Below, one piece after another: positions 1 through 64,000 of a stretch of DNA of 64,000 nt. Origin of the DNA: Candidatus Omnitrophota bacterium (GTDB lineage: Bacteria > Omnitrophota > Gorgyraeia > Zapsychrales > JAKLDJ01); NCBI GenBank assembly GCA_022703585.1, contig JAKLDJ010000001.1:246891-310890 (forward strand). The letters run 5' to 3'. The notes under the pieces are model-generated. The model did no database searches and was not told where the DNA came from. It saw only the letters and a program-made list of their open reading frames with translations. Within the stretch, counting starts at the first letter, position 1. Each line of letters begins with the position of its first letter. A program made the translations under genes and the position numbers.

Positions 1-420
1 AAACCGGCAAGTTCTATGCTATGCCGGTTGGTGATTTCATAAAGTCCCGGCCAGGTCCCGATATTCGAAATAACCGCCGTTTTGCCCTTAAATTCTTTAA
101 TGCGCCGGGCTAAATGTTCAGGAGAAGAAAGATCTTCCTGATGCAAATAATAATCTTTTCCCGGAATGAGGCCGTTAAGCCTGAAATTCTCCTGCGCATG
201 AGACAACAATCTAAAGTCATTATCAATCAGATCAAACCTTGCCGCGCCTAACCGCCATGCCGCCAGCGCCAGGATTCCTTCTGCGCAGCCGGCATCAATA
301 ACGCGTTTACCGGCTAAATCACAATGGAGTATCGCCGCGATAGCGGAAGTCGTATAGACGTGATGGCGGTTTAAGGCAAATATGCATAAGTCGAGATCCT
401 GGATAAGAATAACGTTTCGG
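1..420 (-). CDS. SAM-dependent methyltransferase small domain (RsmC/PrmA-like). It is in the -1 frame relative to the giant ORF, has no in-frame start codon, is partial (runs off the window start), and is probably the C-terminal continuation of the giant ORF through a frame disruption.
   Basis: Translation: RNVILIQDLDLCIFALNRHHVYTTSAIAAILHCDLAGKRVIDAGCAEGILALAAWRLGAARFDLIDNDFRLL...IKEFKGKTAVISNIGTWPG. Motif I is VIDAGCAEG. The frame has an in-frame TGA at 469-471 upstream and no ATG/GTG/TTG start between that TGA and the domain. The giant frame ends TAA 372-374 inside this domain. Confidence 0.55.
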
Positions 421-3400
421 GCAAGTTCTCTTTGAAGTGAAGCGCTCAGCTGTTTGTATTTTTCGGAATCAATGAAAAACAGGCAACCCACTCTTATAAA
501 ATAGTAGCCCTGGTTTCTTTGATAGGGCCTGCCCCAGCCATCGTGCTCTATTCTATGCAATTTTTCCGGCAATAAACCACCCCAACGTTCCCGGACAATA
601 CGACGAGGCCCAAATTGCAACAGGCTGTCAACGGCATCGAGATTATACATCTTCTCGTAACGAACATGTTCAAGGCCCAATTCATCAACAATCTTTTGGC
701 TTAAATTCCGGCAGGTTGATTCTTCAAGATGAACGGCTATTGGAGATTTATTGTCAAATGGAGTTGGGGCATACGCGGATTTCTGCTGAAGAAATTGCCC
801 GGCAGAACAACTTAATGGCCGCTGTGCCGGAGGGCCTCTGCTAACCCAATCAGAAAATGCATTTTCTATTCTAACAAAAACCTTTAATTGCCACGCCAAG
901 GTTAATATCGCCATCCAGGCAAAAATGACTATAAGCGGCAGATACGCGTTTAAATCGTCTTTCTTGTCGCCGAGCTTAGGTTTAAGCGACTCCCTGGTCT
1001 GAGGCTGCGAGGTGGCGGACGGTTTTTCCCAATTCGGAAACAGAGGCCGAATCCGGGTAATCCTTTTTTCCTCCAATGATAAGAAATAGAGCCCAAACAT
1101 TACCTCCACGCTACCCATTAGCCTGGAATCGGCGGACTGGACAACCGCCCTCAAAAACAAGTTCTTGATAGAAGTACCTGTTTGATCAACGATCGTTAAT
1201 GGACTGCCCTCGCTATTAATAAAATCTTCCATCAAGGCTTTTAGAATCTTGCGCAGCTGACGGTTAGGATTAAACCTAAGATCTTGAAGATATCTTTTCT
1301 GGAGGGCTAATTTTTCTTCATGTGTCCATTCTCTGATGTATGGCATAATCACGGAATCTATTTGGTCCGGAGGTGTAAATAAAAGCACAATAAAGTCCGT
1401 CACAACTTCGTGAATTAGAAGTCGACTACTGGCTAAATATCCGGCCCTTAGATAGACAAAACCCGCACCCAGGGCATGAACTGTTTCATGCAATAAAGCT
1501 CCATGCGGATCAAAAGAATGGACATCGACGACAACGACCCCTTTTACGTCTAAAGGAATTCCCAAGAATTCTAATAGTTGTTGCAGTGATATACCAAGGG
1601 CTCGGGCGCTATCCTCAAAATCACCCCTCGATATCCAACGACCATCCCAATCCATTCTCTCGGTAAGATAATCTTTGTCTGCTGGAGTGAACGCTTCTGC
1701 GGAAATAACTTTTCTCAAATAAGAATGCTCCTTGCTTCTGGAGCCGCTTTCATCAGATGCTAATAAGAACGCAAACAACGGATCCCCGAATTTAACATTC
1801 AGGAAATAGGGAATACCTTCCCGCGATAAAAGCGCAGTAATATCTCTTACCGGCGGTAAACCTTTTGTTTCGGGGAAATCGGAGAAATCTTCCCTGTCCA
1901 CGCCTTTCGTCATCCCTGATAAGGCAAACGGCAGCATCATCAGCGGCCATGAAGCAAAGGGCAGCGCGAAGCAGCCGAGGGCATCATCCTTTTCTCCCGA
2001 AGGTATAAAATTAGGTTTCGTTACATTTCGGTCTAAAACTTCTCTTCGAAATTGTTGAATAACAGGCAACTCATTGATCCAGGCAGACGCGTCGGCTAAA
2101 TTATCAAGAACTTCATTCACTTCGCCGACATATCCGTCGGGGATTTGGCTGTAGATTTGCGGCGGCTCTTGACTATCATCTAAGTAAAAATAATCAACGC
2201 CCGGAACAAGAAAATTTTCATCGACGTTAACATCGATGGTGCGAACACCATAACTCATTATTTCCGTAGTTATAGCCTGGGGAGGGATGATCCAAACTTT
2301 GCCGGGAGCAGCGACAAACATATATTGGACTTTGCGATTTTGCGATACAACACGATACCTTCTTACTTTCCTTCCGTATAATTCGGTTAATCCGCTCCTG
2401 TCTGTGCTTATTTCAACGATGCCTCTGCTAAAATCCGGTTCAAAACCATACACAAATTTTCCGGATGCAGGATCATTTTTCCTTGTAAAATAAGCGATTC
2501 TCCGGCCATGGTTAATAAGATTACGCCCGGATGCTCTCGCTTTTTGTCTTGGAGCAACAAAATCTCGATAAGGACCGATGCGATGATAGGGTGCCCTGCG
2601 CACAACCAAGCTAACAGCGGCAGCATCATGCCTGGGTCTTTTAACCTTTAAGTTAATCGCATCAAGGGCCGACTGAATTTCAAGAGGCAAATTCGTTGTC
2701 TCTTCCATCGAGACATACAGCACTTCCCCATTTTCATGAATAATCTTAAGATCTCCTTTGCCAAACCATTCATTATTTCCGTTTGAGCCGTGATGATGGG
2801 AGGCTGATCGCCACGCAAGAGAATAATCTTTGTAAAATAAACGCGGGTAAATAACCTGTTTACCGGTGGCAGGATGCCTCTCTAGAACATAGGCGACAAA
2901 CATTATTTCATCATCATCGAGCAGGGTATTGGTCAGATAATACGTCGTAGTGAAAAGCTGTATTTTATATTTTGGTGTATAGCCCCGCGATAATAAGCTT
3001 AAAGGATCATTTTTAGCTTTTCCAACGGGTTTTATCTCTACGCCGTTTTCAATAAGTTTTCTAAATTCGTATTCCACTTGTCGGGGGGTCATGTTTGAAG
3101 GACGAACCTTGCGTACAATCCGCGCGGCGGGTTGAGCCCTCTTTTTTCCATCAGTCGAATTATCTTTTACCATCCCCCCCACCGACAGGAAAACCGGCAA
3201 CAACATCAGCGGCCCGGCCTCGACGAGGCTCAAAAGGCCTGCGAAGGCCGAGGCGGGCAACAAAACCAAAGACCAAAGACCAAAGACCGCGCTCAAATCC
3301 GCCAGCGACCAGAAGGTAAAGAACAAGATAACGCAACTCATCTCGTCTTGTTGGGTATGCTCAAAGCTGCCGTGTGCCAATTTTATTTTAGCGGCACGCA

Positions 3401-6400
3401 CTTTAAACAGCGTTTGGTCTAAAATCCCGTTGTCCGTGAATGAAAAACAGGGAGTGGCCGTATCGCTATCAACAAAAAGCCTCTTGGCCCTTCCGCCTAA
3501 ACCTAGCTCGACGACCGCATCGGCCCTTAGGGCATCCGATAACCTTACCATTTCGCTTGAATACGCTGGCCTGTTAATTGTATCCAGAATACCTTCAATA
3601 ACATCATGGCTCGTCCTTAGATACCCTGTGTTGTTATTGGATACGATAGGCACCCATGGATCCCGGACTTCAATATTTCGACCGATAAAATCCTTCACGG
3701 CCAGACGTAGGTGGGTCCATTTCCTGGAATGAGAAGAAAATCTATTGTTCCTCAATAATAGCTTGGCCTTGATCCCCATCTCGCCAGAATGGGTAACCAT
3801 AAACTCTTCAAAATCGCCTAAGGTGGCATCGTCGACAAAAACCTTGCATCGGGGTACCGACCCAGCAGAATAAAATTTAAACACCTCAACGGCATCGGAA
3901 AATCTGCGCTCTAAAATACGTACCGCTTCATGGGTTCTCTCGCCATCCAGAACAAAGATATGATTCAGTCCGCGCGCAGCAGGGCTCTTTGCCCCTTCGG
4001 TAAAGATATAGCGTTCCAATCTTACCCCGTCTCCGATAGAAATCGCGCCACTGGCAATGGCCGAAGTTACTGACCCGAGGCTTTCTCCGGCAAATGCCTT
4101 GAATGCAAACGGAATTCCTTCTTTCTTGACAACTGCTTCAAAATAAGCTTTTAACGCCAAATTGATCACCGTAAGAGCTACGCTTAAAAAGCTCGGCCTT
4201 CTGGAATGGTCCGAAGGGATATTCCTGCTATTAATGAATAGTTTGGCCGGGTCAGGTCGGCCCTTATCATCTTTAAACCCTAAGGCCTCGGCAGCCGCTT
4301 TATAGAGAGATTGTATTTCGAGTATTCCCGTGTCATACAAAACACTGCCTACTCTTCCATAGGCGCCCACGCTACGAAAGCTCTGGAAGAGTCCTATTAA
4401 CTGAAGCTGAATATTACTACCTCTGTCTTCCCCGCCTACTATCCCCGCCAACGGCACCAAGGCCAAAGGCCAAAGACTAAAGACCAAACTAAGACCAGCC
4501 AGCGGCACAAACGCACCGAGACGGCCTGCGTCCGAGGCCTCACTCGGATTTGGCGCACGGTAGAGAATCATGCCCTCGCTACGGATTTGCTCAGGGGACG
4601 TATGCGTTAACCCACGATCATCGCTAAAAGCCACATGCGGCTTAACACCGACCGATTCCTCGCGGGCAAAATAAAGAATCTCATTTTTTAACCGCCAGGC
4701 ATCCATATCCGTGCCGGGCGCATCGATAAAGATATCCGCATCGGCGTCAACGGGTGTCGGCGCGCGGGACAAGCTGCCGAAAAGATACAGGTTGAATTTC
4801 CGCACCTTAACCCGGTCAACGGCTCGCCCGACCAGCCAACGGGCATCGGCAATCCTTGCGTCACGTTCCGAGTCCGTAAGTAACGGGCGCGCTTTCTTGC
4901 CGCCCTCCTTATCTTGCATCATTCTTAACGGTTTGTCTCCCTCAATGCGACGCCTGAGCCCTTGTTCAGCTGCCTCACTGCCAAAGAAATAATACGTGCC
5001 TTCAAGGTCGAGCCCGCCCTGCCCTACAGGCTTTTCCGTCAGGTAAGAAAACGGGGTGATCCTGCCGATATCGGAAGAATAGAAATCAATATACATAGCC
5101 GTTGGTTTTTCGCCGGCACGCTCAAGATAAACAAATCCGTTTTTAATAGTTGCAGTTACGCCTGCTTCATTAAGAAACGCCGCGGCCTTTATCATGGCGA
5201 CGTCAAAAATATCCTGCGCCTGTTCCGGGGTCAAGGTATCGTCGAGGTAAACCCTAAAATCAACATCCTTCCTATTCCAAAACGCCCGGCCGTGGGCTTT
5301 AAAAGATTTCGGGAAACTGCCCTCGGCCTTAACCAATACACTTTTACCACCGGAGGCTTCATAAAACGCCCGCGTTACAATATCAACCACATTGGCACCC
5401 TGCCAGGTGCGCGCCACATCAACATGAAAGATGTTTTCCTTAAGCGTGTACGCCGTCTTTTCTATCCCTAAAAGCTTAATAATTTTTAACGGATCAAAAG
5501 CGGCCAACGGCAGAAAAGCGCCCAAGGATTCATCAAGCACAGTTTTCGCCGCAGCAAATACTTCCTCGGGGGTTAAGCGGTACGGATTCCCTTCCGGAGA
5601 TTTAAGAATGATGCTTCGGTCGGTCCAAGGACGGCATTCTGTCTGATTGGTAGAACCGAAAAGCGAAATAATCTTAGGGGCATTGACCGCCGCAGCCACA
5701 TGCGTCAAGCCGCAATCATTGCCGATGACAATATTCGTACGTTCAAGCACCGCCGCCACAACATGGATAGGCTGATTCGAAACCACCGCAACCTTTTCCG
5801 GATTTTTAACCGCTGATAAGAGTTTTTTATCGAGTCCGTCTTGTTGTTCTTCCGGGCCCAGAAATACGGCAAACTTCATTTGCGGAAATTCATCATGCAT
5901 GAGATTAACCAGCTGGGCAAAATGTTCGACGGGCCAGCGCCGGAGCATAAACCATCTGCCGCAGCCTAAATTCAGGCCAATCAAGGCTTCAGACTCGGTG
6001 ATGCCGTTTTGGGATAAAAATTCCCGGGCTGTTGCCTTTGCCGCGTCCGGAATGGTCAGCTTAACCGACATGTCAAATCCATGGCCGGGATTTACGCTTA
6101 ACGCCCCAAGGCTGGTAAGGCGAAATAGGTCCATATTCGTCTCGGCATGATGGCGATGGGAACTAAATCCTACAGCGTTTTCATGATTTAAAAACGACAG
6201 CCTCGCCTTTGAATCCAGCCCAATGCGGTACCGGGCCAAAAGCGCCCCCAGGATACTATCCATGTAACGCCACCGCGAGGTGACAATGCCCAAATCCGCC
6301 TTTTTAAAGATAAAAGGCATCAGCCTCGACACTTCCCGAAGGCTCTCTTGCAACCTATGCATACGGGGTGAAAATCGGATGACCTCATCAATATACGGTT

Positions 6401-9400
6401 CGTGAGTAAGAATTCCGTTTGAAGAGCCGTTGGCAATAACGGTAATCCGCGCCCGAGGCAATCTTTTCCTTAATTCCTTTAGCATCGGAATAAACAGAAC
6501 CGTGTCGCCCATGCCGTCGTGTAAAAAGACAATAACGGTTCGAGCCGAAGAAAAATCCGCCCGCTGCCGGCCCAGGTATATTCTCGTCAGAAACTTAACC
6601 GGATACAGCCCCAAAAGGACTCCTTCTCTTATAAATTTCTTTGCTGTTCTAAGCAAAATTTTTGAGAGTATTTTCACGGCAAGGACAAAGGCGTATCGCG
6701 CCGACCATTGCTGCTCTTCTTTAACAAGCTTCTCGATGCGCCATTCAATAGGAGAAAGATTTCCGTCCGGCATGCGGTATCCGGGCCCCATTAACAAAGT
6801 CAGGATGCTAAAATATCCGGGCAGGCGGCGGGAGTTAATCTTTTCTCGATAGGCTTCAGTTTCTTCATCCGCCGTAATCGGCCTGGGGCCAAAAAACGAC
6901 ATCTCTCCTTTTATAATATTAAAGATTTGCGGCAATTCATCCAGGCCGGTTAAACGTAAAAACTTTCCTATCAGCCCGCTGCGGTTATCTCTCATGGTGC
7001 GTATTTTATAAACCCTAAACATCGTTCCCTGATATCCGACACGTTCCTGGATAAAGAATCCCGGCTTTTTGAAATCGGAAAGCTTAACGGTGGCCCACAA
7101 AATTCCAATCATCGGCAGAATCACGGGCATCGCAATCCACGGAACCACCCTATCAATCAACTTGATATACCAAAGATTATGAATGAGTTTCCCGGCGTCT
7201 CCGCCTTGCGGATTTTTCTGACGATCTTCTGCTATCATCCCCGTCAGGGACAGAAGAACCAATCCCGGCACCAGGCAGCCGAGCCTATCGGATACGGCGG
7301 AATCACCGCGGCCTTCGCCTTCAGTTTCAGTAATCGGTATTAGGCGCAGCCTTCGTTCCAATAACTGCTCAAGCCGGGCTTGTTGTTTTTCGCGCGAATC
7401 GCTGCGGTCATCGCCAAAGCCGCCCCGCACCCGGACAGTAAGATATTCCCACCCGTTCTCAAAATAAAACGGCGTGTAACCATTACGTATTAAGAAATAA
7501 TTGGCCATAAACCAGGCAAGCCGGTGATGGCCGTCGGCGGTATGGGGAGCAAGCGCCCCGCGTTGCTGCCGGCCGCCGGGAGTAACCGTGTCAAATCCGG
7601 CTAACCCGGGAAAAAGCCTGGGGATATAAGTAAAATTGAAATTTAGAAACGCCTGTCCAAACCCGACGGCCTTATAGATACGCGCTGCCACGCGGATAAC
7701 GATTGCGCGATCGGCATACCGCCGATTCGCCCAGTCAACATACGGCATCCCCGCCACCGACTGCAACCGTTGTCCCCGTATCTCAGCGGTATAGGCAGGA
7801 TTTTCTCTGTCGCCTCTGAATAATTCATACATGTCCATGGCATACTCCCATGTCAGCGGCACCCCGGAGGCAATGAGCCGGTTAAAATAATCGATAGCGG
7901 ATTCAAGCCGCGGCATAATATTAGAAGAAGCCAATGCCGCCGCTCGTTCGGGCTCGAGCCGGGCTTGAGCAATCATTCTCGTTGCCGACCCGGCCTCGAT
8001 GAGGCCAAAAAGCCCTAATAAGGCCGAGGCGGGCAGGAAGGCGGCGATCGTATCGTCGTGGCTTGGTTCTTCATCCACAGCTTGCGGCATTACAGATAAC
8101 ACGCTGCCCGAATCAATATCTTGGGTAAACGAGATATACGCATCGAGTGCGGCGCTATAGGCTTCCGCAACAAAACGTTTTTCATCCAAAGACGGATGAT
8201 TCTCTTCTCCGATCGAAAATAGCCGGCTGCGCATGGATTGCGCAACGGCGCTTTTGCCCTGCAGGAATTCTAACAGTGTCAAGGCAGCAGATATTCTCTT
8301 TGCGGCTTTTCTGAAATGCTCATCCTCTGTTTTCTTTTTAATAAAAGTATTGTTCATCCGTTGATGAGATATAATCAACAACCTCGAAATTTCGGCTATA
8401 TTGTTTTGGAATTGGTTTGGCGTACTAACAAATTCTTTACCCCACACAACAAGCTGAGCCTTATTGGTTCGCGTGCGGTGAGAGTTAACAACCCATACCG
8501 GATGGTCTATAATCACACCTTGGGGCACCTCCGGAGTCACATCGCTTTCCAACACTTCCCGGCCTGTTATGATCATACCCATTTTTTGTATTTGCTTTTC
8601 CAGGGTTATATCTTCGGGCAAGGCTAAAACCAGGTGATCTATATCCAAAGCGGTTAAAATTCTCCCCTCAACAACAACCAGAATGTCTAAATCACGAGGG
8701 TGCGCACTATACAGATAGCTTCCGAAAAACGATATATTGACAACTTCGTACCCTAAGGATTGACGAATATATGAGAGTAGGCACGGAACAATCTGCAAGA
8801 GTGATCGAGCCGTTGCAAATACTTTTTCCTGGTGGGGCTTCTTGAGAATTTTAAAAATTCGCATATAATTAAGCTGCTCTAAGAGCAGTTCGTCTGTTGA
8901 TACATCAACATCACGATCGGATAACACCCTCAACGGAAATTCAAATACATAGTCCCGCATCTCGGGAACAGCAAGCTCGGCAATTTTCAATTTATCTGCA
9001 TTAGTCAATTGATTGATTGTGTTACCTTCTGAATAGCTGCGCGGATGATGAAAATCTTCGCTCTCTCCCGCTTGTCGCGGCCCGGCAGCGGACAACTCAC
9101 TCCTTCTTCCATCGCCCTTTTCGTCTCTCGTCATCCCCATGAGTACCATCGGCAGCGCCAGCAGAAAAGCAAACGGCACAAAGGAGCAGGCAAGCTCGCC
9201 GTTGATGTAGGAAGCCACGTCCCGGCCAATCGGCAGGTTAGCACGCACGCGCACCAAATTCCGGAGGTATTCATACGGTACCGGTGCGCTGAAATTATTC
9301 CTAGACCCGATAATACAATCAATGCGCAGGGCTTTCTTATCATACGTTGCTTCGGCTGGGATAATCAGGCCCCTTGGTTCCCGATGGGCAAAAAGCCTGA

Positions 9401-12400
9401 TAAGCCAGGAGAGAGCCGTAGTGTAGTGGCCGTTCGCCCGCGCAAGCACGTCCAGCAATGTTGACGGCCGGCGCAAGACATAACTGCCGTTATGGCTTTG
9501 ATGTTCTAAAATCCATCCCTTAATATTTGCTCCGTCGACAAATACATCGTTGAGGATAACGGCCAGGTGGCTGCCGACGGCACTGCGGGCATCATTCGCC
9601 CAGTTCTTAACACCGAGCACAATCAATCCTCTGATGTCCCGATGGTCCTGGCGCACAACGCGCATCACGCTGCCCCGCGGGTACGCCTGCGAAGAATCGA
9701 TAACGAGCCCCTGATGATTAACAACCACAACATCTGTTAGTCCGGCGTGTAGCGCGCGCAGGAAACGCCGTTCCACTTTTTCACACGCAGGAGACACAAT
9801 CTTGAATAACCCTATATCAACAAGCCACATCTTTTCTGCTTCTGAAAACCGTATGCCATAGATACCTGATTTTCTATATAACGGGATTGGCTGCAGTTGC
9901 ACCGCACCCTGGGCTTTCCCGACGCCATCTCGCACCATCCCCATCATCAGCCCCGTAAAAAAGAACCCGGATCCGAGGAGGCCAAGGGCCGAAACGGACG
10001 TGAACATAAAAGGATTGATAATGCAGCTGACAGATTCGTCGGAGGCAAACGGAACATTTGGCTCAGACAGCCTTTGGACGCCTTTTGAACTATTCAGCTT
10101 GCGAATATGCCTCTTGATTAACAAGACTCTAAGAAAGGTCGGAGAATGAAATAGGTAAGCCCAAAATCCTCTGGATCCTTTGATTATTTTCAGGAATTCG
10201 TACGGATGAGATATATCAAACCCTGCCTCATGCGCAAATTTAATTCCCAAAAAGTCAGCCCTCAACTCAAAATACCATCTGCGTACAACCGAAATAGAAA
10301 CGATGGCGCATCCGATCAAGATCTTATTGACGGAATATTCGTCAAAAAACGTGTTTTCAACAACCGATAAAATCATCAGCTTCATCAGGAAACCGGCAAA
10401 TTCCACGTTCCCCTTTGTGGAAAGCTCGTTTCTCGACTGTCTATCAAGTTTTACTATATGGGCAAAGACCGCGTAAGCCACTCCTTTTGGATCTCGGCTT
10501 TCTAAAGAAACAACATGATGCTTCTCGGTCGTATGGGCAAGTTCGTGCCCCAGGATAAGAGCCCTTGTTGATTGGTGAAGGGTAAAAAATTTATTGTTGA
10601 TAATGATACCCGGCTGACGGAGGAATAATGCCGCGGCATTAACCTTTTTCTGGGAAAATCCTGAAATATTCAACAGGGTGTATTTAAAGCAGTTTAAGCC
10701 CGGATAATGATTGGATGCGGCCCTGATCAGCTCTCCCAACATGTACTTTGTTTCTTGTATTTTGTTCCTCTGCACAGGCACGTAAACAGCTTTGGTGGCG
10801 AATAGATTTCGTGCCCAATATAACCTAATAGCCGCGGAAATAAGACTGATAGCAATCATGGCTTTGGTCAAGTCTCCAAGCCCGGCTGTACTCAACGAGG
10901 TTTTAAAGATGCCAACAACATAGATGAAGAATCCGGCAATCGCCACCGCTCTTATATTGGATATTACGGAAGGCATCACTTTGTTGTGATGAGCCATCCT
11001 GCTGTAAATGATCTTGAATGTTTTCAGGGCCGCCGCTGCCAAGATGACATTTCTCAAGAAGACATCATTCCAAATCAAACCAATCCACGTTCCTCCTGTC
11101 AAAAGCCCGGCCCCTTCGACTGCGCTCAGGGCGAGCCCGATGAGGCCAAAAAGCCCTAATAAGGCCGAGGCGGGCAGGAAGGCGGCGACCGAATCACCGT
11201 CATCACCGGCCGTTGGCGGTAATCGATCTTTACCGGACTTGCCCCCCTGGATAAGGTGCCGTTTGCGCAACTCTGTTAAGGTTTCGCTTCGAGAGCGTTT
11301 AATGAGATAGGTACGAGCAAAAGCCACAACTCCGAGCGTAGCCAAGAAACTCACGAGATATTCAATGACCTGCCGTAATGAACCAGGCGGCTCAACAACG
11401 GCAAGCACCAGGAGGCCGAGGGCAGCCGCAAGAATAACCACGTCACGTTCTGCCCTGATAAGACGCCCTATTTTCACCAGAGACTTGCCCAGGTCAAAAG
11501 TGGCCCATCCCAGGCCGGTAAAAAGAAAGATGAAGATTATTAAATCCGTAAAATCAAGGACTATGCCGCCGCTCCTCATCCAATCGCGCACTCCGCCGAC
11601 AAAGGTAAAATCTAACATACGCGCGAATAAAATACCGCACCCGAGCCCCATCCATAGATGCCATAAACGCTTTTTCACATTGATTAAGTTAGCGAGAAGA
11701 TAGGCAGCCCAAAAGTCTGCCAAAATCGTGCCCAGCTCAAGCATCTGCGCCTTGTCCCCATAGTGAACAAGATTCTCTAACGAGATATTGCCGGTCAGAA
11801 TATCGTAAAAGCGGCCTATGGCTGTTTTTAAATTTGAAACAAGCGAGAAATCCTGCGCACTGGTCATGTCTCCGGGTATCGAATGAAATGTTTTTTCGGG
11901 AATAGTCAGCCAGACATAAATTTTAAAGGTCCAGTCGATCAGGGAAATGGCAATCATGGGAATCATCAGGTGCGGCTTGGGATGCAGGCGGGACAACAAA
12001 CGCTGCGGCGGCCCGTCCGCCAGAAAATCTGTCGAGACAGGTCTCGCCCCGACAGTATGTCGGGGCGGACCGCGACGGGTCATCGCCGCATGGGCCATGC
12101 GATTCTTCGAAACCACTGCCGCCCAGGAAATCCCGACAAGACAAACAATCGTCAGCATAAAAGGCCACAGGATAACGGCCGCAAGCTCAGATTCGTCGAC
12201 GGCCGCGGACCCGGGAGGCGCGAAATACTCCGAGAGATGCACGGCGACCGCGTCATGGAAATTGCGCTGCGCGTTCACGGCACGGGCCCATTTTCTAAAA
12301 CGCTCTGTGTAGTCATCGTATGCCAGAAACATGTCGCGTGCTTCGGGGACAGCGTGAGAAAAAGGCAATCCTTGATGTCCCGTTTCTATACAACTGGAAT

Positions 12401-15400
12401 GTAACTCCAAACGAAAGTGTCGATAATATTCGTAGGAAGGCTCAAAGAAAAACGGCTTTGCAGCGCTGAGCTCAGTCGACACCGTCCCGTAACCGGTAAC
12501 CAAAGACGGCAAGTTGCAGGCGGCAACCAACGCGCTAAAGTCACGAAACGGGATACGATTTAAATTAACCAGTAAAACCCGTCCCATCGGCGTATTCATC
12601 GGCACAATGTAGGGCTTATGTTTGACAAAGCGAAACACAACAATAGGCCTGTCGGCAAGCGGCAACTTCTTAGAATGCGCGGTATTCAAAGCATCGCGTA
12701 CTAAATCAAGGTAGGCAAATACTACGCTCTCATCGTGGGCATGTGGCATCACTAAGCCCCAGCGCGCTTCCCGGATAATATCAACCGCCCCCAAATATTC
12801 ATCGCTCAGCTGCCCCGCAAACATTTCCAGCAATGCCAGCCGTAAGTAAGCGCTGCCGTCGATGGCAATATTATCCATCAAATCTTCGTCAAGAATGGCT
12901 CCGTGTGAACCGCTGGTAACGCCCGGATATAACATGCGAACATTGTCAATCGGTACTGAGTCTGCGTATACAGATAATGACGGCTTTGATATTGCAAAAC
13001 CGTATTCGGGAAACACGATACTCATGGGGGCAACAATACCCTGGCCTGCCAGTTCACGGTAGAGCCTGGCTGTCATTCTATTCCCCGACGCATAGTAAAC
13101 CGTCGGATAGGTGATAACATAATCGCCGATATTTGCAAGGTCAGCGTAGGCTATATACATAATGCCATTCACTTCATTTTCCGGTACCGCCCAATCGATG
13201 TTAGGGAAAAAGCCCGAGAGCAATTGGTAAGAATATTGCTGGATAAATACACGAACTGTCGCGTCAGGGAAACGACGTTTAATGCCGCGCGCCACCATAA
13301 TCGACAGCCCGATATCACCCACGCCATCCGGCAAGACTTCGGGAATAACGTTGACGGCATGATCAAACATCATCCGCTCCAGCCATGCCGGCCAGGCAAG
13401 CGTCTGGGGCGCTTCCAGAACAGAAGCCGACTGCGTCATGCCTGCCAACGGCAGGCAGACTAAAGACCAGAGACTAAAGACAAAATTAAAATCGGCAAAC
13501 GGCAGGAAGGCAGCGAGTGGGGTTCCGTTATCCAACGACTGACCGAAAGGACCAAGCAGTCGTTGTGGAGTGACCGGCGCCTCAGCAAGCTCAACGTATT
13601 CGATGTCCTCATTAAGCCATTTCAAGATCACCTGTGTCATATGTGTATTAATAATAAGATATCCTTTGCGTTTAAGCATCATCAGGCTCTCGCGGTCTTC
13701 GACAGTCACGAATACAGGGGTAAGGATATCGTACATTAGTTGCAAGGATGCAGCCCAGAGTACCCGCTGCAGGACGATTTGTTCCCGCGTCGAGAGCTTG
13801 CCTTCTGCCCAATCGTTAAAAATAGTCTCGCGCAAAGTTTCCTGCGGCGTCACTTCAGCGGCACTCGTGTTATCCAACTCCGAGAGTGAAACGTCAGCGG
13901 GGTTAAACCGTAATACCTCCCCTGCCATTAACCGGCGATACAGCTCCCGAGTGGTATTGTGAATGACGTTCACATCATAAATACTCGACGTACCCATAAC
14001 GCCCTTTCCCCCGTCAATGACCGCCTCATATCCCATGCCGCGCAACACCTCGTCGAGGGCGATACGAGTTAACCAATCGAGCTGTCCGGAATCCAGTTTC
14101 TTGACAAGACCACTGGCGATCTTCGCGGCTTCCATATCATGGCGCTGGCCAATCTTGCCTAAGGCAATAACCAGCGGAATAGTTGCCGGTGAATCAACCG
14201 GCGAGGAACCCAGTGCTTCAAGCAAGGCGCCAATCGCCCTGCGCCCAACCTTGACCAAGGTTTGAATTACGACACGCTGTGAATAATCGGAGACAACGCC
14301 GGTAAGGCTCACCAGACGTGCCAATGCCGACCGTTCTTTGCTAAGGCCAAGCTGACGGATGGCCTTATTACGTATGGAGGGAACAACGTCCGTCAATTGC
14401 TCTTCCAATGTTTCGACCGGGATAACGGCGGTTTCAACATCCATCGTTCGGCGATTATGCACTTTGATAATTTCGATAACCCTGACAAATTCGGGAATAT
14501 CCTCAAAACCGATTGTCTCAATCTTGATAATGTCAACGCGAACACCCAGGCGCTGCGTGATGTGCTCCATCACCTCGAAGGTACCGATCCCCTCGTAGAT
14601 AATCACGTCAATTGTACGATCATAATACGCCTCAAGGATATGTTCACGGGCTTCCGCGTCATGACGTTCAACATCCATATAATCGTAGTTCATGACAAAG
14701 ACGCGGTCAGCCGGAATGCCTAGACCACCACACTGCAATTCTTTCGCGAGATGCGTCTTGCCTGAGGTGCTAGCACCGCCAATAACTAGAATAACCTTGG
14801 TAGGACTGTCAGTAATAATCTGGCGGACCAAACGAATCCCTTCGCGCTGCGTGATGATCTGCTGAACTTCTTGAGTCGAGATTATCGCTTCCTCCGTTTC
14901 CTCGGAAACCCAATTATCCGAAATACAGGTTGAGGATAGCACCAAATGTTTAATGCCCTGATTCTGTTCGTCCATAACAACGTAGCAATCGATAAATTCC
15001 GCTCCCATGGCATCCGCCACTCGACCCCAAAGATTGGCACGCACCGCTTCACTCGAGACCTTGTTGACGGGTTTCAAGGGATCCTTCTGAAGTAAAATTT
15101 CAATAATATCCGCCCGCAGGCGCTCAGCAATCTCGTCACGCACCGCAAAATATTCTCCGTTACCAATAACAAAATTCCTGAGTTGCTCATCATCGAAGAT
15201 ATCGACTATCGCAGCTTTTTTGTCATTGAAGCCCGGAACCATCATGGTAGCAAAATGTTCATATGCCAATAAGTCCTGGCGCAGCCTGCCGATAACATTC
15301 ACCCCTTTTTGGATAAAAAGATCTCCTTGTTCAAATTGCGCCTCGAGTGCTCTGGCAATATAATAAAGGCTTTCGATTTCCGTCATACGAATCTGAACCT

Positions 15401-18400
15401 TAAAAGCCCTCACGGCGTTTGATTTGAACCGTTCGCCTAATAATCGCGCGAACGCGCTAAAGACGCCACGGCCCGAAATCAACAGCAACTGACTATCTAA
15501 AAGATGAATCTTTCCGCGAGGCCCTATGTGCCCGTAGATATAGACGCCTCTGATGCGTCGGCCAGTTGCCTGATCCGCAAAGAAGATTGCCCAGAATAAT
15601 TTCCCTTTATATTCCTGGCGCAACGCCTGCGTGCGGACACTCACCAACTCATCAAACCGGCCGATATCGGTCAAAAGTTCCGCGCACCCGCCTTGTATAA
15701 TCTCAAAATCAAAAACCAGTTCCCGCGCCAAATGAGCAACATCGGTAGAGAATGAAACCACATAACACCTGCCGGCTTTATCTTTGACCTGTTCACCATC
15801 TAGAGAACGCAAGATCCCAAAGGCCTCTTTTTGCTGAGCCGTAAAAAGTAATTCATGCTGCAGCGCTTCAATCCATGAAATCACTTGACGGTAATGGCGG
15901 ACTTGCTGCGCTGACAAAAAGGCATTCTCGCCTAATGGGCCGCCCATGGCCGCCCCCTTGACGTCAATCGCTACGCCACAGACATCGAGCTCTTGATGCC
16001 GCTCAAGCCGGTGTTGGCACTCTTCGAGCACAACCTGCAATTGTTCCTGCAATTCCCTTTCCATCATATCGGGCTCGACCATGCACGTCTTAAGGGTACG
16101 GGCAATGAACTCCAGCTTTCCGAAAGAATACGTATTAGTCAAGAACCAGATTTCTAGTAAATGCGCGATAAGCGACTCCCGTTTCTTCTGAGTGGCATCA
16201 TAGAGCTCAGCCGGTCTTCCTATATAATCGCGCAACAATGCCTTAACCCGTCCGGTTTCGTGGCGTCCGGCATAACGGTCGATATCTGCACGTAATTCCG
16301 CACCCAACTCTCTGGCAAGGTTAAGGCCTTTCATGTAACCAGCCAACATCTCTCTGTTCACGGCAATTTCAAAGGGCATATCTTCACCGGGAATACTGAC
16401 AAGTAGAGCCGGCATTATCGCTAAGATTTTCTCAACGACTGCCACAAACTCTTGTTGTGTTAACGCGCCGTCGTCTAAAAATGCGGATACCGCCGCCTGC
16501 TCGGCAAGGTCAGGCGTTAACATCATGGCGACAATCTCGGAGACATCTTCACCGCTGGTATATAATTCCCGGATTGCCCGGGCACCACTAACGCCATAGT
16601 AGTTTTCTATGAACTCGACCGTTTCCTTGTCTATATTTCTAAAGCGGTACATCCTGCCATCCGCGCTATATGCCTGCTGTGGCATTAATAATTCTTTCAA
16701 CGCACTCTCCAACATACCCAACATCACCGCACGTTCATTATTGGTATCATCCATCCGTCCCAATAACGGCATCAGCGCGAACAGGGAGAGAAACGGAACA
16801 AAGGCGGTGAGGGTGTCCACCTTTTGACCGTCCGGTGTCCGGCGGTAAAAAGGAAGCTCAACGACAAATCGGTATTTATACAAGCCTTCTTCCTGGCTGA
16901 CAAATTCCGTCGATACGCGTAATGGTTTCGGGTGCCAGGCAAGAGGAGTAAAGGTTAAGTTTTTTCCGGCAGCCGAGGCAAGGATTCCTCGCAACCCCGC
17001 CCAATCCTCGTCGGTCACATCGTGTTTAAAGAGAGCGAACCGGATGCGTTTGATTCCGTATTCCAGCATTTTGTTGGAGTCTAGAACCAGTTCTTCCATG
17101 TTCTGCGGTCCCAAGAATTCAAATTTCAAAAGCGCTACCGGGCCCTTGGCGCCGCCGCTAATCGTCAACAAATGTTTCTCGGTATCAAACTGGTCTCTGA
17201 ACATGCTTTCAAAGGCAGTTTTAATAGATACCCCTTGAGGAATAAACGGGCTCACCATAATTGTGCGGCTGGGGAAAATGATTGTCCGCGGGGTTAAGCA
17301 AAAGTCGAGCGTGATAATCCGTCTGTTGCTATCATGAGAAACGATTCCTGTTTCTTGTGTAACAGCCCGATCACTGCGGCGGCCTTCACCGAGTCCGGCA
17401 GGAACTTCAGAAGAACTGCCGGGTTGCGACTTCTCGGCTTTGATAATATCGCCTTGATCCTCGACGCCCAGGCTATTCTCTTCGGGCTGCGCAGACGCTA
17501 CCTCGCGATCGAGATCATCGCCAGCGTGTCCGCACATGGCCTCGATTTCCTCGCGGATACCTTCAACTACATCCTCCATTGCCCCTATTTGAAGCGCCGC
17601 CTTCTTAAACTTCCGGGACACCTTAAACCGGAGATAGAGATCCAAGCCCGCCAGAAACAGACTAATACCGAAGCCGGCCAGGGCAATAAATAACGGGCTC
17701 AAGGCGGCAAGCTCGTCGTCCGACGTATCACTATCGGGGACAGACCCCGCCTCATCTTGGATGTGTCCCCTTTCTACGCCTGGGACTGTCCCAGGTGTGG
17801 CTTGGGGACAGGTCGGAGTTACGGCGGGCCGTCCATCAAAAGATCCATCGGGACGAGCCTCGCCACGAAATTCGGCGGGGTCTGTCCCCGTTTCCACTTC
17901 CATGGCGGACCCGGCAGGAAGAGTTATGTTCTTAATCCCGGCATAATCAAATCCCGTGGCCTCAACAGCGGCCTTCCAAGAACCAAAGTACTTGGCGCCC
18001 GCGGTATACACAGAATTTAGGGAAATATTTATTTTAAAATGATCGTAAAGAATTCTTCTCGCTTGCGGCGGATTACACCTCATTGCAGTAAAAGATAAAT
18101 CAATCCTGCCATAGAGCAGTGTAATCGCTTCAATAATCCTTTCTCTATTCCAGAATCTATCCGGCACCTGCTGCCTTCGCGGCGACTGCACCTTTTTTAA
18201 CGGCCGCAATTTCCCGTTATGGCTCACCGTCAATGTCCCGTTGGATTCCCGCAGAATCCACTTACGCAACCGCTCAATGGCTTTTGCATGAATTTGGCAC
18301 GCGCGAGATTCAGTTACCCCCAAGCTCTCGCCGATTGTCTTTAGCGTCATCCCTTCCAGATAATACCGGCGCACAACATATTGCTCTTTTTTCGGCAACC

Positions 18401-63746: not shown

Positions 63747-64000
63747 GTCAGGAACCACATGGCAAACAAATCCCAGGGCAGCAAGGGTCCGGGCGGTAAT
63801 AGCCTGGAAGAGATTGCTGTGATACCGTACCTCATGGCCGTAATTCGTCTGATAAGGGAAGTACGCTCCCTTGTTATAAAGAATCTTCACCATAAGGCCT
63901 AAGGATAACGATGTCAGCAGCCTTTCAAAAGAATTCTTAATAACCCGGGTATCGTGAATATCGGTAATATTCATCGCATGCCTGATACCGGCGATCGCCA
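63638..64000 (-). CDS. 5-prime continuation of the giant ORF in a different frame. It encodes the N-terminal part of the phosphohexomutase (PGM/PMM/GlmM-like) module, ends at TAA 63638-63640, overlaps the main frame, and runs off the window end.
   Basis: Translation in frame +2 reads ...IHDTRVIKNSFERLL...ITARTLAALGFVCHVVPDNAATAIWN. The main-frame sequence TSTMGKFFNFVLSFCGTSSHSPSNVDGLK continues it (SASHNP-like active-site Ser motif). Protein-level continuity across the junction implies a 1-nt frame disruption near 63715-63725. Confidence 0.5.

What the first reader, a model, noticed from the sequence alone, without database searches (positions are those of the whole stretch)
4520..14950. Envelope-glycan toolkit within the same ORF
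A uridine kinase-like P-loop domain, a putative polytopic ligase-like membrane domain, the M48 protease, two minimal nucleotidyltransferases, a WbaP-type sugar transferase (DELPQIF...GPRP) and a GT9 heptosyltransferase (GNDCGLTHVAAAVNAPKIISLFGST) follow one another. This suggests a contiguous surface-polysaccharide or LPS-core-like pathway encoded as modules of one protein.
Basis: partly seen in the sequence, partly recalled or inferred. Interest (0 to 1): 0.65.

Follow-up and report, generated by a model that had tools for sequence, protein, structure and literature searches.

The report
Sugar-transferase pair inside giant mosaic gene
The flagged stretch is a small part of a single bacterial gene longer than 64,000 bases that strings dozens of unrelated enzymes together; only two of them, fused side by side, build sugar chains, so it is not a complete cell-surface sugar pathway.

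Summary
The whole 64-kb window is the interior of one minus-strand ORF: 21,332 codons with no stop, running off both ends. Within 4520-14950, HMMs confirm three of the claimed modules: an M48 metalloprotease, a monotopic phosphoglycosyl transferase (Bac_transf) and a GT9 glycosyltransferase. The other calls are weak. The "uridine kinase" is only a Walker-A P-loop. The "ligase-like" membrane block matches no family. The two "minimal nucleotidyltransferases" rest on a short motif. PGT and GT9 share one module, a PglC-like core fused to a GT rather than WbaP-type. They are the only glycan enzymes in 21,332 aa, which otherwise hold sigma-70 factors, Dus, Maf, NUDIX, CheR, many methyltransferases and peptidases. 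Large relatives share single modules in different company, and the two that carry names are Candidatus Omnitrophota. So this is a new member of the known giant multi-enzyme ("Archaeovorin"-like) protein class, carrying a two-step glycan-priming unit, not a pathway. The new feature is a conserved proline-containing hydrophobic junction motif, about 20 copies against none in shuffles, that delimits the modules and gives candidate anchor or cleavage points.

The parts
1..64000 (-). Interior of one giant ORF (>=21,332 codons; first full codon starts at 63998; both ends lie outside the window)
   Evidence: 0 stops in this frame against 648-1,401 in the others. About 20 Pfam families all hit in this frame. 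No RNA genes, tRNAs or antisense domain hits.
13509..14951 (-). M1 (aa 16350-16830): P-loop NTPase-like segment (Walker A at window 14751-14777) followed by HEAT-like repeats
   Evidence: Walker A motif. Uridine kinase models score only 14 bits against cut-offs of 180-220. HEAT_2 E 5e-4. AlphaRep E 0.023.
13383..13577 (-). Junction (aa 16808-16872), FSLWSLV variant
   Evidence: Junction HMM 38.0 bits.
12186..13451 (-). M2 (aa 16850-17271): orphan module with a GDxG...PFFFEP pattern reminiscent of EarP/GT-B; unresolved
   Evidence: EarP E 0.014, N-terminal part only. No homologue in the indexed search. AF2 single-sequence pLDDT 33.9.
11190..12185 (-). M3 (aa 17272-17603): polytopic hydrophobic block of 6-7 segments, family unknown
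   Evidence: Hydropathy scan. No Pfam or NCBIfam family at E<=1 or 0.1.
11082..11225 (-). Junction (aa 17592-17639); contains a 63-nt DNA repeat copy at 11138-11200
   Evidence: 94% identical to 7997-8059.
10014..11189 (-). M4 (aa 17604-17995): membrane-embedded M48 zinc metalloprotease (domain at window 10191-10658) with HELAH and ELRAD motifs
   Evidence: Peptidase_M48 34.7 bits above cut-off 20.3. Motifs read.
9195..9941 (-). M5 (aa 18020-18268): orphan module
   Evidence: No hit in Pfam, NCBIfam, PADLOC or PHROGs.
9075..9254 (-). Junction (aa 18249-18308)
   Evidence: 42.1 bits.
8049..9137 (-). M6 (aa 18288-18650): module with the minimal-NTase-like motif FFGSYLYSAHPRDLDI; assignment not established
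   Evidence: Motif only. PADLOC PDC-S09 E 0.017. No Pfam or PDB hit.
7947..8108 (-). Junction (aa 18631-18684); contains a 63-nt DNA repeat copy at 7997-8059
7284..7997 (-). M7 (aa 18668-18905): probable divergent Fic-fold domain with a DGHHRLAW core; family shared with large Omnitrophota proteins
   Evidence: 35-46% identity to modules of P0001, P0002, P0067, P0070, P0112 and P0119. AF2 pLDDT 73.4. The Foldseek top 14 are all Fic proteins but weak. FICD and IbpA profile hits E 0.2-1.
7182..7346 (-). Junction (aa 18885-18939)
   Evidence: 33.0 bits.
6678..7160 (-). Monotopic phosphoglycosyl transferase core (aa 18947-19107): re-entrant helix, DE dyad in LDELPQ, GPRP
   Evidence: Bac_transf 95.8 bits, profile positions 3-166 of 179. 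PglC 8e37 E 5e-13 and WbaP 8t53 E 2e-13.
5589..6545 (-). GT9 (GT-B) glycosyltransferase (aa ~19152-19470), in the same module as the PGT with no junction between them
   Evidence: Glyco_transf_9 81.5 bits. Full-length alignment to GT9 structure 3tov, E 6e-19, with GNDCGLTHV aligned to TNDSGPMHV. Heptosyltransferase equivalogs are all below cut-off.
5484..5525 (-). Short junction variant LGAFLPLAAFDPL (aa 19492-19505), 22 aa after the end of GT9
   Evidence: Regex plus hydropathy scan. Boundary table.
4494..5513 (-). M9 (aa 19496-19835): unknown N-terminal part plus the minimal-NTase-like motif LFGSLSRAPTPVDADADI
   Evidence: Polbeta E 0.004, 17.6 bits, below cut-off 26.9. PADLOC PDC-S09 E 0.008.
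4389..4571 (-). Junction (aa 19810-19870), FSLW variant

Best explanation
Window 4520-14950 covers nine consecutive modules (aa 16350-19835) of a giant mosaic multi-enzyme protein of at least 21,332 aa. It belongs to the kind described in Candidatus Omnitrophota as Archaeovorin-type or multi-enzyme giants. Modules are whole-protein-sized units separated by a conserved junction: an acidic run, then L-[AG]-[AC]-F-[LV]-P, then 9-13 hydrophobic residues, then G-[M/A/L/R]. Only one module is a glycan unit. It is a bifunctional PglC-like phosphoglycosyl transferase fused to a GT9 GT-B glycosyltransferase. [quoted passage not shown] The tethered GT9 then adds a second sugar (heptose or other) from a cytoplasmic nucleotide sugar, giving a lipid-linked disaccharide primer. 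The neighbouring modules (P-loop/HEAT, polytopic block, M48 protease, NTase-motif modules, Fic-like domain, two orphans) are not steps of that pathway. They are unrelated cargo, like the sigma-70, Dus, Maf, NUDIX, CheR and methyltransferase modules elsewhere in the ORF. Nearly all identified modules need cytoplasmic substrates (SAM, NTPs, tRNA, RNA polymerase core, nucleotide sugars), and the junction hydrophobic stretch is too short for a canonical transmembrane helix. The junctions are therefore most likely membrane-dipping anchors that hold the chain on the cytoplasmic face. Shown here: the single ORF, the domain identities, the junction repeat and the lack of conserved neighbourhood. Inferred: catalytic activity, topology and lineage.
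For: Single frame with no stops. PGT, GT9 and M48 clear their gathering cut-offs, and their catalytic motifs are intact: LDELPQ/GPRP, GD...GNDCGLTH, HELAH...ELRAD. No other glycan family appears in 21,332 aa, which otherwise hold Dus, Maf, CheR, NUDIX, OGFr_N, ARMT1, two sigma-70 modules, Trypsin_2, HATPase_c, PrmA and multiple SAM methyltransferases. Junction HMM: 20 copies at 19-48 bits against 0 in 10 block shuffles. Strict regex: 18 copies against a mean of 0.46 (maximum 4) in 200 shuffles. None of 20 Pfam domains straddles a hydrophobic boundary. GT9 ends 22 aa before a junction and the PGT starts 41 aa after one. The distance from the invariant Pro to the terminal Gly is mostly 9-13 residues. 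Both flanks are net acidic. There are 60 hydrophobic segments in 21,332 aa, one per 355 aa, against about one TM helix per 370 aa reported for Omnitrophota giants (10.64898/2026.06.07.730766). The content matches the 'Archaeovorin' definition of GTs, methyltransferases, peptidases and NUDIX (10.1101/2023.11.21.568195). The only relatives are large mosaic proteins of 3.4-6.5 kaa that share single modules with different neighbours. The two that carry names are Candidatus Omnitrophota. The PGT architecture fits the bifunctional monoPGT class, not the large WbaP class (PMC10312794).
Against: No close relative of this ORF was found anywhere. Conservation of the module order, the lineage and expression are therefore untested. 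The Omnitrophota assignment rests on two named distant relatives plus architecture. PGT-GT9 adjacency with no junction between them would happen by chance only about 2/45 of the time, so some local functional grouping is real. M2 has a weak EarP-like (GT-B) signal (E 0.014) that, if real, would enlarge the glycan theme. The C-terminal part of the PGT is divergent (no PGITG-like motif), so activity is not assured. The topology inference contradicts DeepTMHMM-based readings that place much giant-protein content outside the cytoplasm. The junction HMM does not hit the large relatives.
Confidence: 0.62

Rival explanations
1. One reading: the nine modules together form a contiguous surface-polysaccharide or LPS-core-like assembly line encoded as one protein. 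In this view the kinase and nucleotidyltransferases activate sugars, the PGT and GT9 build the glycan, the polytopic domain ligates or flips it, and M48 is accessory.
For: PGT and GT9 are real and adjacent. A polytopic block exists. M2 gives a weak EarP/GT-B hint. Sugar-metabolism modules are a known co-occurrence community in Omnitrophota giants.
Against: There are no Wzx/Wzy/WaaL/ABC or NTP_transferase-type hits. The kinase call is P-loop only. The NTase calls are motif-level with chance P about 0.1, and the fold type is wrong for sugar activation. A Fic-like domain and M48 interrupt the series. Large relatives never keep PGT with GT9 or with any of these neighbours.
Confidence: 0.08
2. Polyprotein reading: the giant ORF is translated once and then cut at the junctions into about 45 separate proteins, including free sigma factors, an M48 protease and a PGT-GT9 enzyme. 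The cut could be made by a signal-peptidase-like enzyme or by the embedded M48 or trypsin-like peptidases. The junction acts as an internal signal-like sequence: a short hydrophobic core with a small residue (G or A) at -1, followed by Met in 9 of 17 copies.
For: The junction has a conserved form, a short hydrophobic core of 9-13 aa after the Pro, and a terminal G[M/A]. Modules correspond to whole-protein units. Peptidase modules are present in the ORF. Cleavage has been proposed for Omnitrophota giants, but no sites are known (10.1101/2023.11.21.568195).
Against: There is no direct evidence of cleavage. The n-region is acidic rather than basic, unlike Sec signal peptides. Some long stretches carry several domains with no junction (aa 2354-4501). 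The motif is absent from other giants examined. Signal-peptidase cleavage would place alternate modules outside the cytoplasm, which does not fit SAM/NTP-dependent enzymes and sigma factors.
Confidence: 0.22
3. Artefact or non-functional reading: the stop-free frame is an assembly chimera, or a decaying or non-translated stretch, rather than a real protein-coding gene.
For: No identical or near-identical sequence exists in any collection searched. Most of the 21,332 aa is Pfam-dark.
Against: A stop-free run of 21,332 codons cannot arise by chance when the other frames carry 648-1,401 stops. About 20 independent domains with intact catalytic motifs all lie in this frame. Codon-position bias is normal. 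A frame-specific repeated peptide motif is present. Such genes are documented and detected by proteomics in Omnitrophota.
Confidence: 0.03

Closest known systems
Omnitrophota giant proteins: 'Archaeovorin'-type (West-Roberts et al. 2023, bioRxiv 10.1101/2023.11.21.568195) and 'class 1 multi-enzyme metabolic clusters' (Nielsen & Lui 2026, bioRxiv 10.64898/2026.06.07.730766)
   Same: A single ORF of tens of kilobases. Many distinct and highly divergent Pfam domains with none dominating (methyltransferases, HATPase_c, NUDIX, peptidases, GTs). About one hydrophobic helix per 350-370 aa. Mostly sequence-unique. The named distant relatives are Omnitrophota.
   Different: The GT types reported there are GT5, GT1 and starch synthase. 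PGT (PF02397), GT9 (PF01075), sigma-70 and Fic are not mentioned in the main texts searched. SecA_DEAD and C39 hallmarks were not found in this window, although the ORF is incomplete. No conserved junction motif has been described, and the one here is not found in the relatives examined.
Bifunctional monotopic phosphoglycosyl transferases (Bi-PGTs) of the PglC/WbaP superfamily (classification summarised in PMC10312794)
   Same: A catalytic core with one re-entrant membrane helix, the Asp-Glu dyad and the PRP motif, with a further enzyme fused to its C-terminus.
   Different: The fusion partner is a GT9. No protein among the 150 best of 48,382 library hits carries both domains, although such a fusion should rank at or near the top. 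The unit is embedded inside a giant ORF rather than being a stand-alone protein of about 600 aa.
WbaP (large monoPGT) and LPS heptosyltransferases WaaC/WaaF/WaaQ
   Same: The same superfamilies and the same catalytic motifs.
   Different: There are no WbaP N-terminal TM bundle and no PF13727 domain. All NCBIfam subfamily and equivalog scores are far below cut-off (93 against 403 for WbaP; 66-82 against 135-185 for heptosyltransferases I-III). The best solved GT9 match is the uncharacterised Veillonella enzyme 3tov, not WaaC or WaaF.
Viral and ubiquitin-type polyproteins (flavivirus internal signal sequences; polyubiquitin ...GG|M...)
   Same: Gene-sized units joined by a short repeated element that ends in a small residue, often followed by Met.
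   Different: No cleavage is shown, the flanks are acidic, and the setting is bacterial. This is an analogy only.

Membership tests
Monotopic phosphoglycosyl transferase superfamily (Pfam Bac_transf PF02397) | Score above the Pfam gathering cut-off over most of the profile | tested here: met
   95.8 bits against 27, profile positions 3-166 of 179.
Monotopic phosphoglycosyl transferase superfamily (Pfam Bac_transf PF02397) | N-terminal re-entrant helix with a proline break, the Asp-Glu catalytic dyad and the PRP motif | tested here: met
   IAMPVILPMIGILWATVKL, LDELPQ and FFGPRP were read and align to WbaP 8t53 and PglC 8e37.
WbaP-type large PGT | N-terminal multi-TM bundle plus PF13727 accessory domain; TIGR03022 subfamily cut-off | tested here: not met
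   Only about 25 aa separate the junction from the re-entrant helix and there is no PF13727 hit. TIGR03022 scores 93 bits against a cut-off of 403.
Glycosyltransferase family 9 (PF01075) | Score above the gathering cut-off, with a full-length GT-B alignment to a solved GT9 | tested here: met
   81.5 bits against 22. 3tov E 5.8e-19 over residues 9-309 of 349. The GNDCGLTHVAAA motif is conserved.
LPS core heptosyltransferases WaaC/WaaF/WaaQ | NCBIfam equivalog cut-offs (TIGR02193/02195/02201) | tested here: not met
   65.6 against 185.3, 66.7 against 134.6 and 82.1 against 170.2 bits.
Peptidase M48 | Gathering cut-off; HExxH plus a downstream Glu (ExxAD) | tested here: met
   34.7 bits against 20.3. 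HELAH is at aa 17818 and FELRAD near aa 17911.
Uridine kinase / PRK family | Equivalog score; match beyond the P-loop | tested here: not met
   14.4 and 13.9 bits against cut-offs of 180 and 220, covering only about 50 N-terminal residues. There is no PRK Pfam hit at E<=1.
Minimal nucleotidyltransferase (Pol-beta superfamily; PF01909/PF18765) | Pfam gathering cut-off; hG[GS]x9-13DxD motif | tested here: inconclusive
   The motif is present twice, with chance P(>=2) of 0.10. M9 Polbeta scores 17.6 bits against 26.9; M6 has no hit. No PDB support.
O-antigen ligase / polymerase (Wzy_C) or other polytopic glycan enzyme | HMM match of the polytopic block | tested here: not met
   M3 has no family hit at E<=1 in Pfam or E<=0.1 in NCBIfam.
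Fic/Doc fold | Canonical HxFx[DE]GNGRxxR motif | tested here: not met
   The core is (H)PADGHHRLAW, one residue shorter, with NG replaced by HH and the first His not invariant.
Fic/Doc fold | Fic-type helical fold | tested here: inconclusive
   AF2 pLDDT 73.4. The Foldseek top 14 are all Fic proteins, but with E 0.5-2, probability <=0.77 and TM 0.40-0.46. FICD and IbpA profile hits have E 0.2-1.
Omnitrophota giant multi-enzyme / Archaeovorin-type proteins | Single ORF >=10 kaa with many distinct Pfams and about one TM segment per 370 aa | tested here: met
   At least 21,332 aa, about 20 families, and 60 hydrophobic segments, one per 355 aa.
Omnitrophota giant multi-enzyme / Archaeovorin-type proteins | Encoded in an Omnitrophota genome; SecA_DEAD or C39 modules | not testable with these tools
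   The window has no marker genes and the ORF ends are missing. SecA_DEAD and C39 were not seen in the window. Indirect support only: the two named module relatives are Candidatus Omnitrophota.
Complete Wzx/Wzy-, ABC- or LPS-core-type glycan pathway | Flippase or transporter, polymerase or ligase, further GTs and sugar-nucleotide synthesis enzymes next to the PGT | tested here: not met
   None was detected in the region or in the remaining 17,800 aa.

The most novel reading that the evidence does not exclude
The conserved proline-containing hydrophobic junction is a dedicated functional element of a 'genome-in-a-gene'. It either marks the processing sites at which a polyprotein of more than 2 MDa is cut into about 45 separate enzymes and regulators, including free sigma-70 factors and a PGT-GT9 enzyme, or it forms a new type of monotopic membrane staple that arrays all modules on the cytoplasmic face. 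Near-identical junction DNA (63 nt, 94%) would also serve as recombination sites that shuffle modules between and within giant genes.
Probability: 0.25. Interest if true: 0.8.

Novelty: new member of a known kind. Interest (0 to 1): 0.5.

Why it matters
Giant bacterial genes are known, but what their products do, and whether they are cut, remains open. West-Roberts et al. state that the lack of information on cleavage points blocked their analysis. This ORF offers two concrete handles. The first is a clean, catalytically intact PGT-GT9 unit, a domain pairing not seen among the best hits in 1.84 billion representative proteins, which can be expressed alone and assayed. The second is a sharply defined junction motif that predicts exact boundaries for about 20 modules. 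That makes the cleavage-versus-anchor question testable by N-terminomics or topology reporters. It also warns annotators that adjacency inside such mosaic ORFs is not evidence of a shared pathway.

Tried and rejected
1. The indexed homology search with the whole 3,477-aa region found nothing. The query was too long and the candidate cap filled with chance word matches, so the result is uninformative.
2. The indexed search with M2 and with the 21-copy junction alignment gave no hits.
3. The genome contigs and metagenome-contig scans returned only generic PGT homologues at 30-50% identity through one shared peptide word. The source and close relatives are absent, so lineage and synteny could not be tested.
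4. I first took P0003-P0007 (about 700 aa, two matched stretches) to be PGT-GT9 fusions. Pfam shows they are GT9-GT9 tandems.
6. Internal translation starts at the junction Met codons: no SD-like motif lies upstream, and promoter and terminator counts are at chance. Rejected.
7. Junction as a lipobox or as a PEP-CTERM/exosortase-type signal: the L-[AG]-C sits at the start rather than the end of the hydrophobic run, Cys is present in only a minority of copies, and the downstream flank is acidic rather than basic.
8. PHROGs and PADLOC scans of the dark modules gave only marginal hits.
9. PDB sequence searches of M1, M2, M6, M7 and M9 and of the trimmed NTase segments found nothing significant.

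Full report
What is there. The finding speaks of modules "within the same ORF". The ORF listing shows only five ORFs of at least 150 aa in 64 kb, because the real ORF runs off both ends of the window. Translating all six frames shows that frame 2 of the minus strand has no stop in 21,332 codons, while the other frames have 648-1,401 stops. Codon-position composition is typical of coding DNA, with 34.6% G at position 1. No RNA family, tRNA or antisense-ORF domain is present. Promoter- and terminator-like sites inside the region are at chance level. The window is therefore the interior of one gene longer than 64 kb. The finding's coordinates 4520-14950 correspond to aa 16350-19827 of the window's translation, read from high to low coordinates.

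Checking each claimed module. I split the region at its hydrophobic boundaries into nine modules, M1 to M9, and scanned them.
- Clear Pfam gathering cut-offs: Peptidase_M48 (34.7 bits against 20.3), Bac_transf (95.8 against 27, profile 3-166 of 179) and Glyco_transf_9 (81.5 against 22).
- PDB sequence search gives a full-length match of the GT9 part to the solved GT9 3tov (E 6e-19). The PGT part matches PglC (8e37) and WbaP (8t53).
- Catalytic motifs are intact: the re-entrant helix IAMPVILPMIGILW, LDELPQ and FFGPRP in the PGT; GD...GNDCGLTHVAAA in the GT9; HELAH...FELRAD in M48.
- All NCBIfam subfamily and equivalog models (WbaP, WcaJ, heptosyltransferases I-III, RfaC/F/Q) score far below their cut-offs, so only superfamily membership is established.
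- Only about 25 aa lie between the preceding junction and the re-entrant helix, and PF13727 is absent. The PGT is therefore a PglC-like core fused to a GT (the "bifunctional" class in PMC10312794), not "WbaP-type".

The remaining claims are weaker.
- The "uridine kinase" is a Walker-A P-loop (GGASTSGKT, aa 16408) that gives 14 bits against uridine-kinase cut-offs of 180-220. It is followed by HEAT-like repeats.
- The "ligase-like" block (M3) has 6-7 hydrophobic segments but matches no family at E<=1.
- The hG[GS]...DxD motif of minimal nucleotidyltransferases occurs exactly twice in the 21,332 aa, both times in this region (aa 18424 and 19739). Composition shuffles give two or more copies in 10% of trials.
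- Only the second copy has a sub-threshold Polbeta hit (E 0.004), and neither finds a PDB relative.
- The second motif lies after the GT9, not before the PGT.

- M2 and M5 are orphans. M2 has no homologue in the indexed search. Its weak EarP-like signal (E 0.014) could not be resolved, because the single-sequence AF2 model is unusable (pLDDT 33.9).
- M7, directly upstream of the PGT, is the best-conserved piece of the region. It is 35-46% identical to modules in six large proteins.
- An alignment-based AF2 model of M7 (pLDDT 73.4, pTM 0.74) retrieves only Fic proteins as its top 14 PDB matches. The scores are weak: E>=0.5, probability <=0.77, TM 0.40-0.46.
- The M7 family profile aligns its DGHHRLAWFxMNYxLIRNGY core to the DGNGRxxRxxxNxxLxxxGY Fic core of FICD and IbpA (E 0.2-1).
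- I call M7 a probable, non-canonical Fic-fold domain. It is not a glycan enzyme.

Context: a mosaic giant. Pfam over the whole frame finds CheR twice, OGFr_N, Maf, ARMT1-like, Dus, NUDIX, at least five SAM methyltransferases, PrmA-like, Trypsin_2, HATPase_c and two sigma-70 modules (one with regions 2, 3 and 4). It finds no further glycosyltransferase, flippase, polymerase, ligase or sugar-nucleotide enzyme. PGT and GT9 are thus the only glycan enzymes detected in 21,332 aa.

They sit in one module with no junction between them. With about 45 modules, random placement would make them adjacent only about 4% of the time (my inference), so the pair is plausibly a functional unit. The surrounding seven modules give no evidence of belonging to it.

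Relatives. The exhaustive HMMER search of 1.84 billion representatives with aa 18641-19840 found no protein resembling the stretch as a whole.
- The top hits are large proteins of 3.4-6.5 kaa that share single modules. Their neighbours differ: HAD, methyltransferase and UPF0489 (P0002); methyltransferase, GGDEF, Ser/Thr kinase and HATPase_c (P0116); inositol monophosphatase (P0141); HATPase_c and TPR (P0008).
- None of the 150 best hits carries both PGT and GT9, although such a fusion should have ranked at or near the top.
- P0002 is a complete 4,446-aa gene in an ordinary MAG neighbourhood.
- Only two of the nine large relatives carry source names, and both are Candidatus Omnitrophota (MDP3142841.1 and MCG3176805.1).
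- Scans of GTDB representative genomes and of JGI metagenomes found neither the source nor any close relative.

Comparison with the literature.
- West-Roberts et al. (10.1101/2023.11.21.568195) define "Archaeovorin"-type Omnitrophota giants by the recurring combination of glycosyltransferases, methyltransferases, peptidases and NUDIX hydrolases with numerous TM helices. They discuss possible cleavage and note that no cleavage points are known.
- This window matches on all of these counts: 60 hydrophobic segments in 21,332 aa, one per 355 aa.
- PGT, GT9, sigma-70 and Fic are not mentioned in the main texts searched.

The junction. The hydrophobic segments are not generic. Many share a motif: an acidic/Gly run, then L-[AG]-[AC]-F-[LV]-P (the Pro is invariant), then 9-13 hydrophobic residues, then G-[M/A/L/R], then an acidic run.
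- An HMM finds 20 copies at 19-48 bits, against none in ten block-shuffled controls. A strict regex finds 18, against a mean of 0.46 in 200 shuffles.
- Six or seven copies lie in the finding's region and delimit M1 to M9.
- No Pfam domain straddles a hydrophobic boundary (20 of 20). Several domains end within 13-25 aa of a boundary. The modules therefore behave as whole-protein units.
- Two junctions, 3.1 kb apart, share a 63-nt stretch that is 94% identical (7997-8059 and 11138-11200). This suggests recombination or gene conversion between junctions.
- No SD-like signal precedes the junction Met codons.
- The motif is absent from the 150 best library hits and from the indexed protein collection.

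How it most likely works. Shown: the single frame, the domain identities, the junction repeat and the non-conserved neighbourhoods. Inferred from family knowledge: the PGT, anchored in the cytoplasmic leaflet by its re-entrant helix, transfers a sugar-1-phosphate to polyprenyl phosphate, and the tethered GT9 adds a second sugar from a cytoplasmic nucleotide sugar.

Almost every identified module needs cytoplasmic substrates (SAM, NTPs, tRNA, RNA polymerase core, nucleotide sugars). The junction's hydrophobic run is shorter than a canonical TM helix and has acidic flanks on both sides. I therefore favour junctions as membrane-dipping anchors that keep the chain on the cytoplasmic face. The main alternative is that they are processing sites of a polyprotein. 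Neither has been tested.

Verdict. The object is a new, sequence-unique member of the known class of giant multi-enzyme proteins, and its conserved junction motif is the most interesting and most testable feature.

Noticed in passing
window 1-64000, minus strand: The entire window is one stop-free reading frame (21,332 codons) that runs off both ends, so the gene is longer than 64 kb. The ORF listing does not show it because it has no ends in the window.
   Followed up: yes
about 20 sites on the minus strand, e.g. 59817-60011, 47199-47369, 33402-33572, 24645-24824, 16701-16874, 13383-13577, 9075-9254, 7182-7346, 1863-2042: A conserved inter-module junction: acidic run, L-[AG]-[AC]-F-[LV]-P, 9-13 hydrophobic residues, G-[M/A/L/R], acidic run. 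There are 20 HMM copies against 0 in shuffles. It is absent from relatives and from the indexed protein collection.
   Followed up: partly
window 7997-8059 and 11138-11200 (also a weak copy at 3221-3283): A 63-nt direct repeat, 94% identical and 3.1 kb apart, encoding two junctions (AAFLPASALLGLFGLI). It brackets modules M4-M6 and may mark recombination or gene conversion between junctions.
   Followed up: partly
window 29499-30146 and 18261-18917, minus strand (aa 11285-11500 and 15028-15246): Two sigma-70 modules inside the giant ORF, about 37% identical to each other. The second has regions 2, 3 and 4, with Sigma70_r4 at E 1.5e-16. Sigma factors fused into a giant membrane-associated protein are unexpected.
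   Followed up: no
window 18969-21191, minus strand (aa ~14270-15010): A tandem array of about eight or nine copies of an 82-90-aa unit (...YDAFRPRLLALxKKHFxAIP...NHPLTxxIIMxxLGVNxSxIxxYKxKMNxDLxxAGYPxIGRS...), 45-64% identical, directly upstream of the second sigma-70 module. It has no Pfam hit. TRF does not detect it at the DNA level; the repeat finder sees 215-nt copies at 19016-19731.
   Followed up: partly
window 28149-29231 and 30399-31529, minus strand (aa 11590-11950 and 10824-11200): An internal duplication of an unannotated segment of about 370 aa (26-38% identity), flanking the first sigma-70 module.
   Followed up: no
window 50499-56882, minus strand (aa 2373-4500): The longest junction-free stretch (2,147 aa). 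It carries Maf, ARMT1-like, Dus and a methyltransferase in series, a nucleotide/RNA-modification-flavoured block, so junctions do not separate every domain.
   Followed up: no
window 57480-57959, minus strand (aa 2014-2173): An OGFr_N domain (opioid growth factor receptor conserved region, mostly known from eukaryotes) hits at E 2.9e-16.
   Followed up: no
window 7284-7997, minus strand (M7); P0001 aa 5604-6027, P0002 aa 3767-3943, P0112 aa 2028-2210: A Pfam-less domain family with invariant FRGD...Y..R..RL, GF and GHHRxAW..N..LI.NG motifs, probably a Fic fold with a non-canonical core. It recurs in large proteins, one of them named Candidatus Omnitrophota (P0112), and is duplicated in tandem in P0001.
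   Followed up: partly
window 12186-13451, minus strand (M2): An orphan 422-aa module whose N-terminal GDIGLS...RRFPDATVRVF and C-terminal GYGTVSTELSAAKPFFFEP strings resemble EarP-type GT-B glycosyltransferases (Pfam EarP E 0.014). No homologues were found and the AF2 model is unusable.
   Followed up: partly
L081 (NCBI GCA_964508905.1, contig CAZDVO010000011.1) 10001-23341: A complete 4,446-aa mosaic gene (HAD, methyltransferase, Bac_transf, UPF0489, M7-like module). It sits between sodB and a Y1 transposase in an otherwise ordinary gene neighbourhood, and is a smaller, tractable relative of the giant.
   Followed up: no
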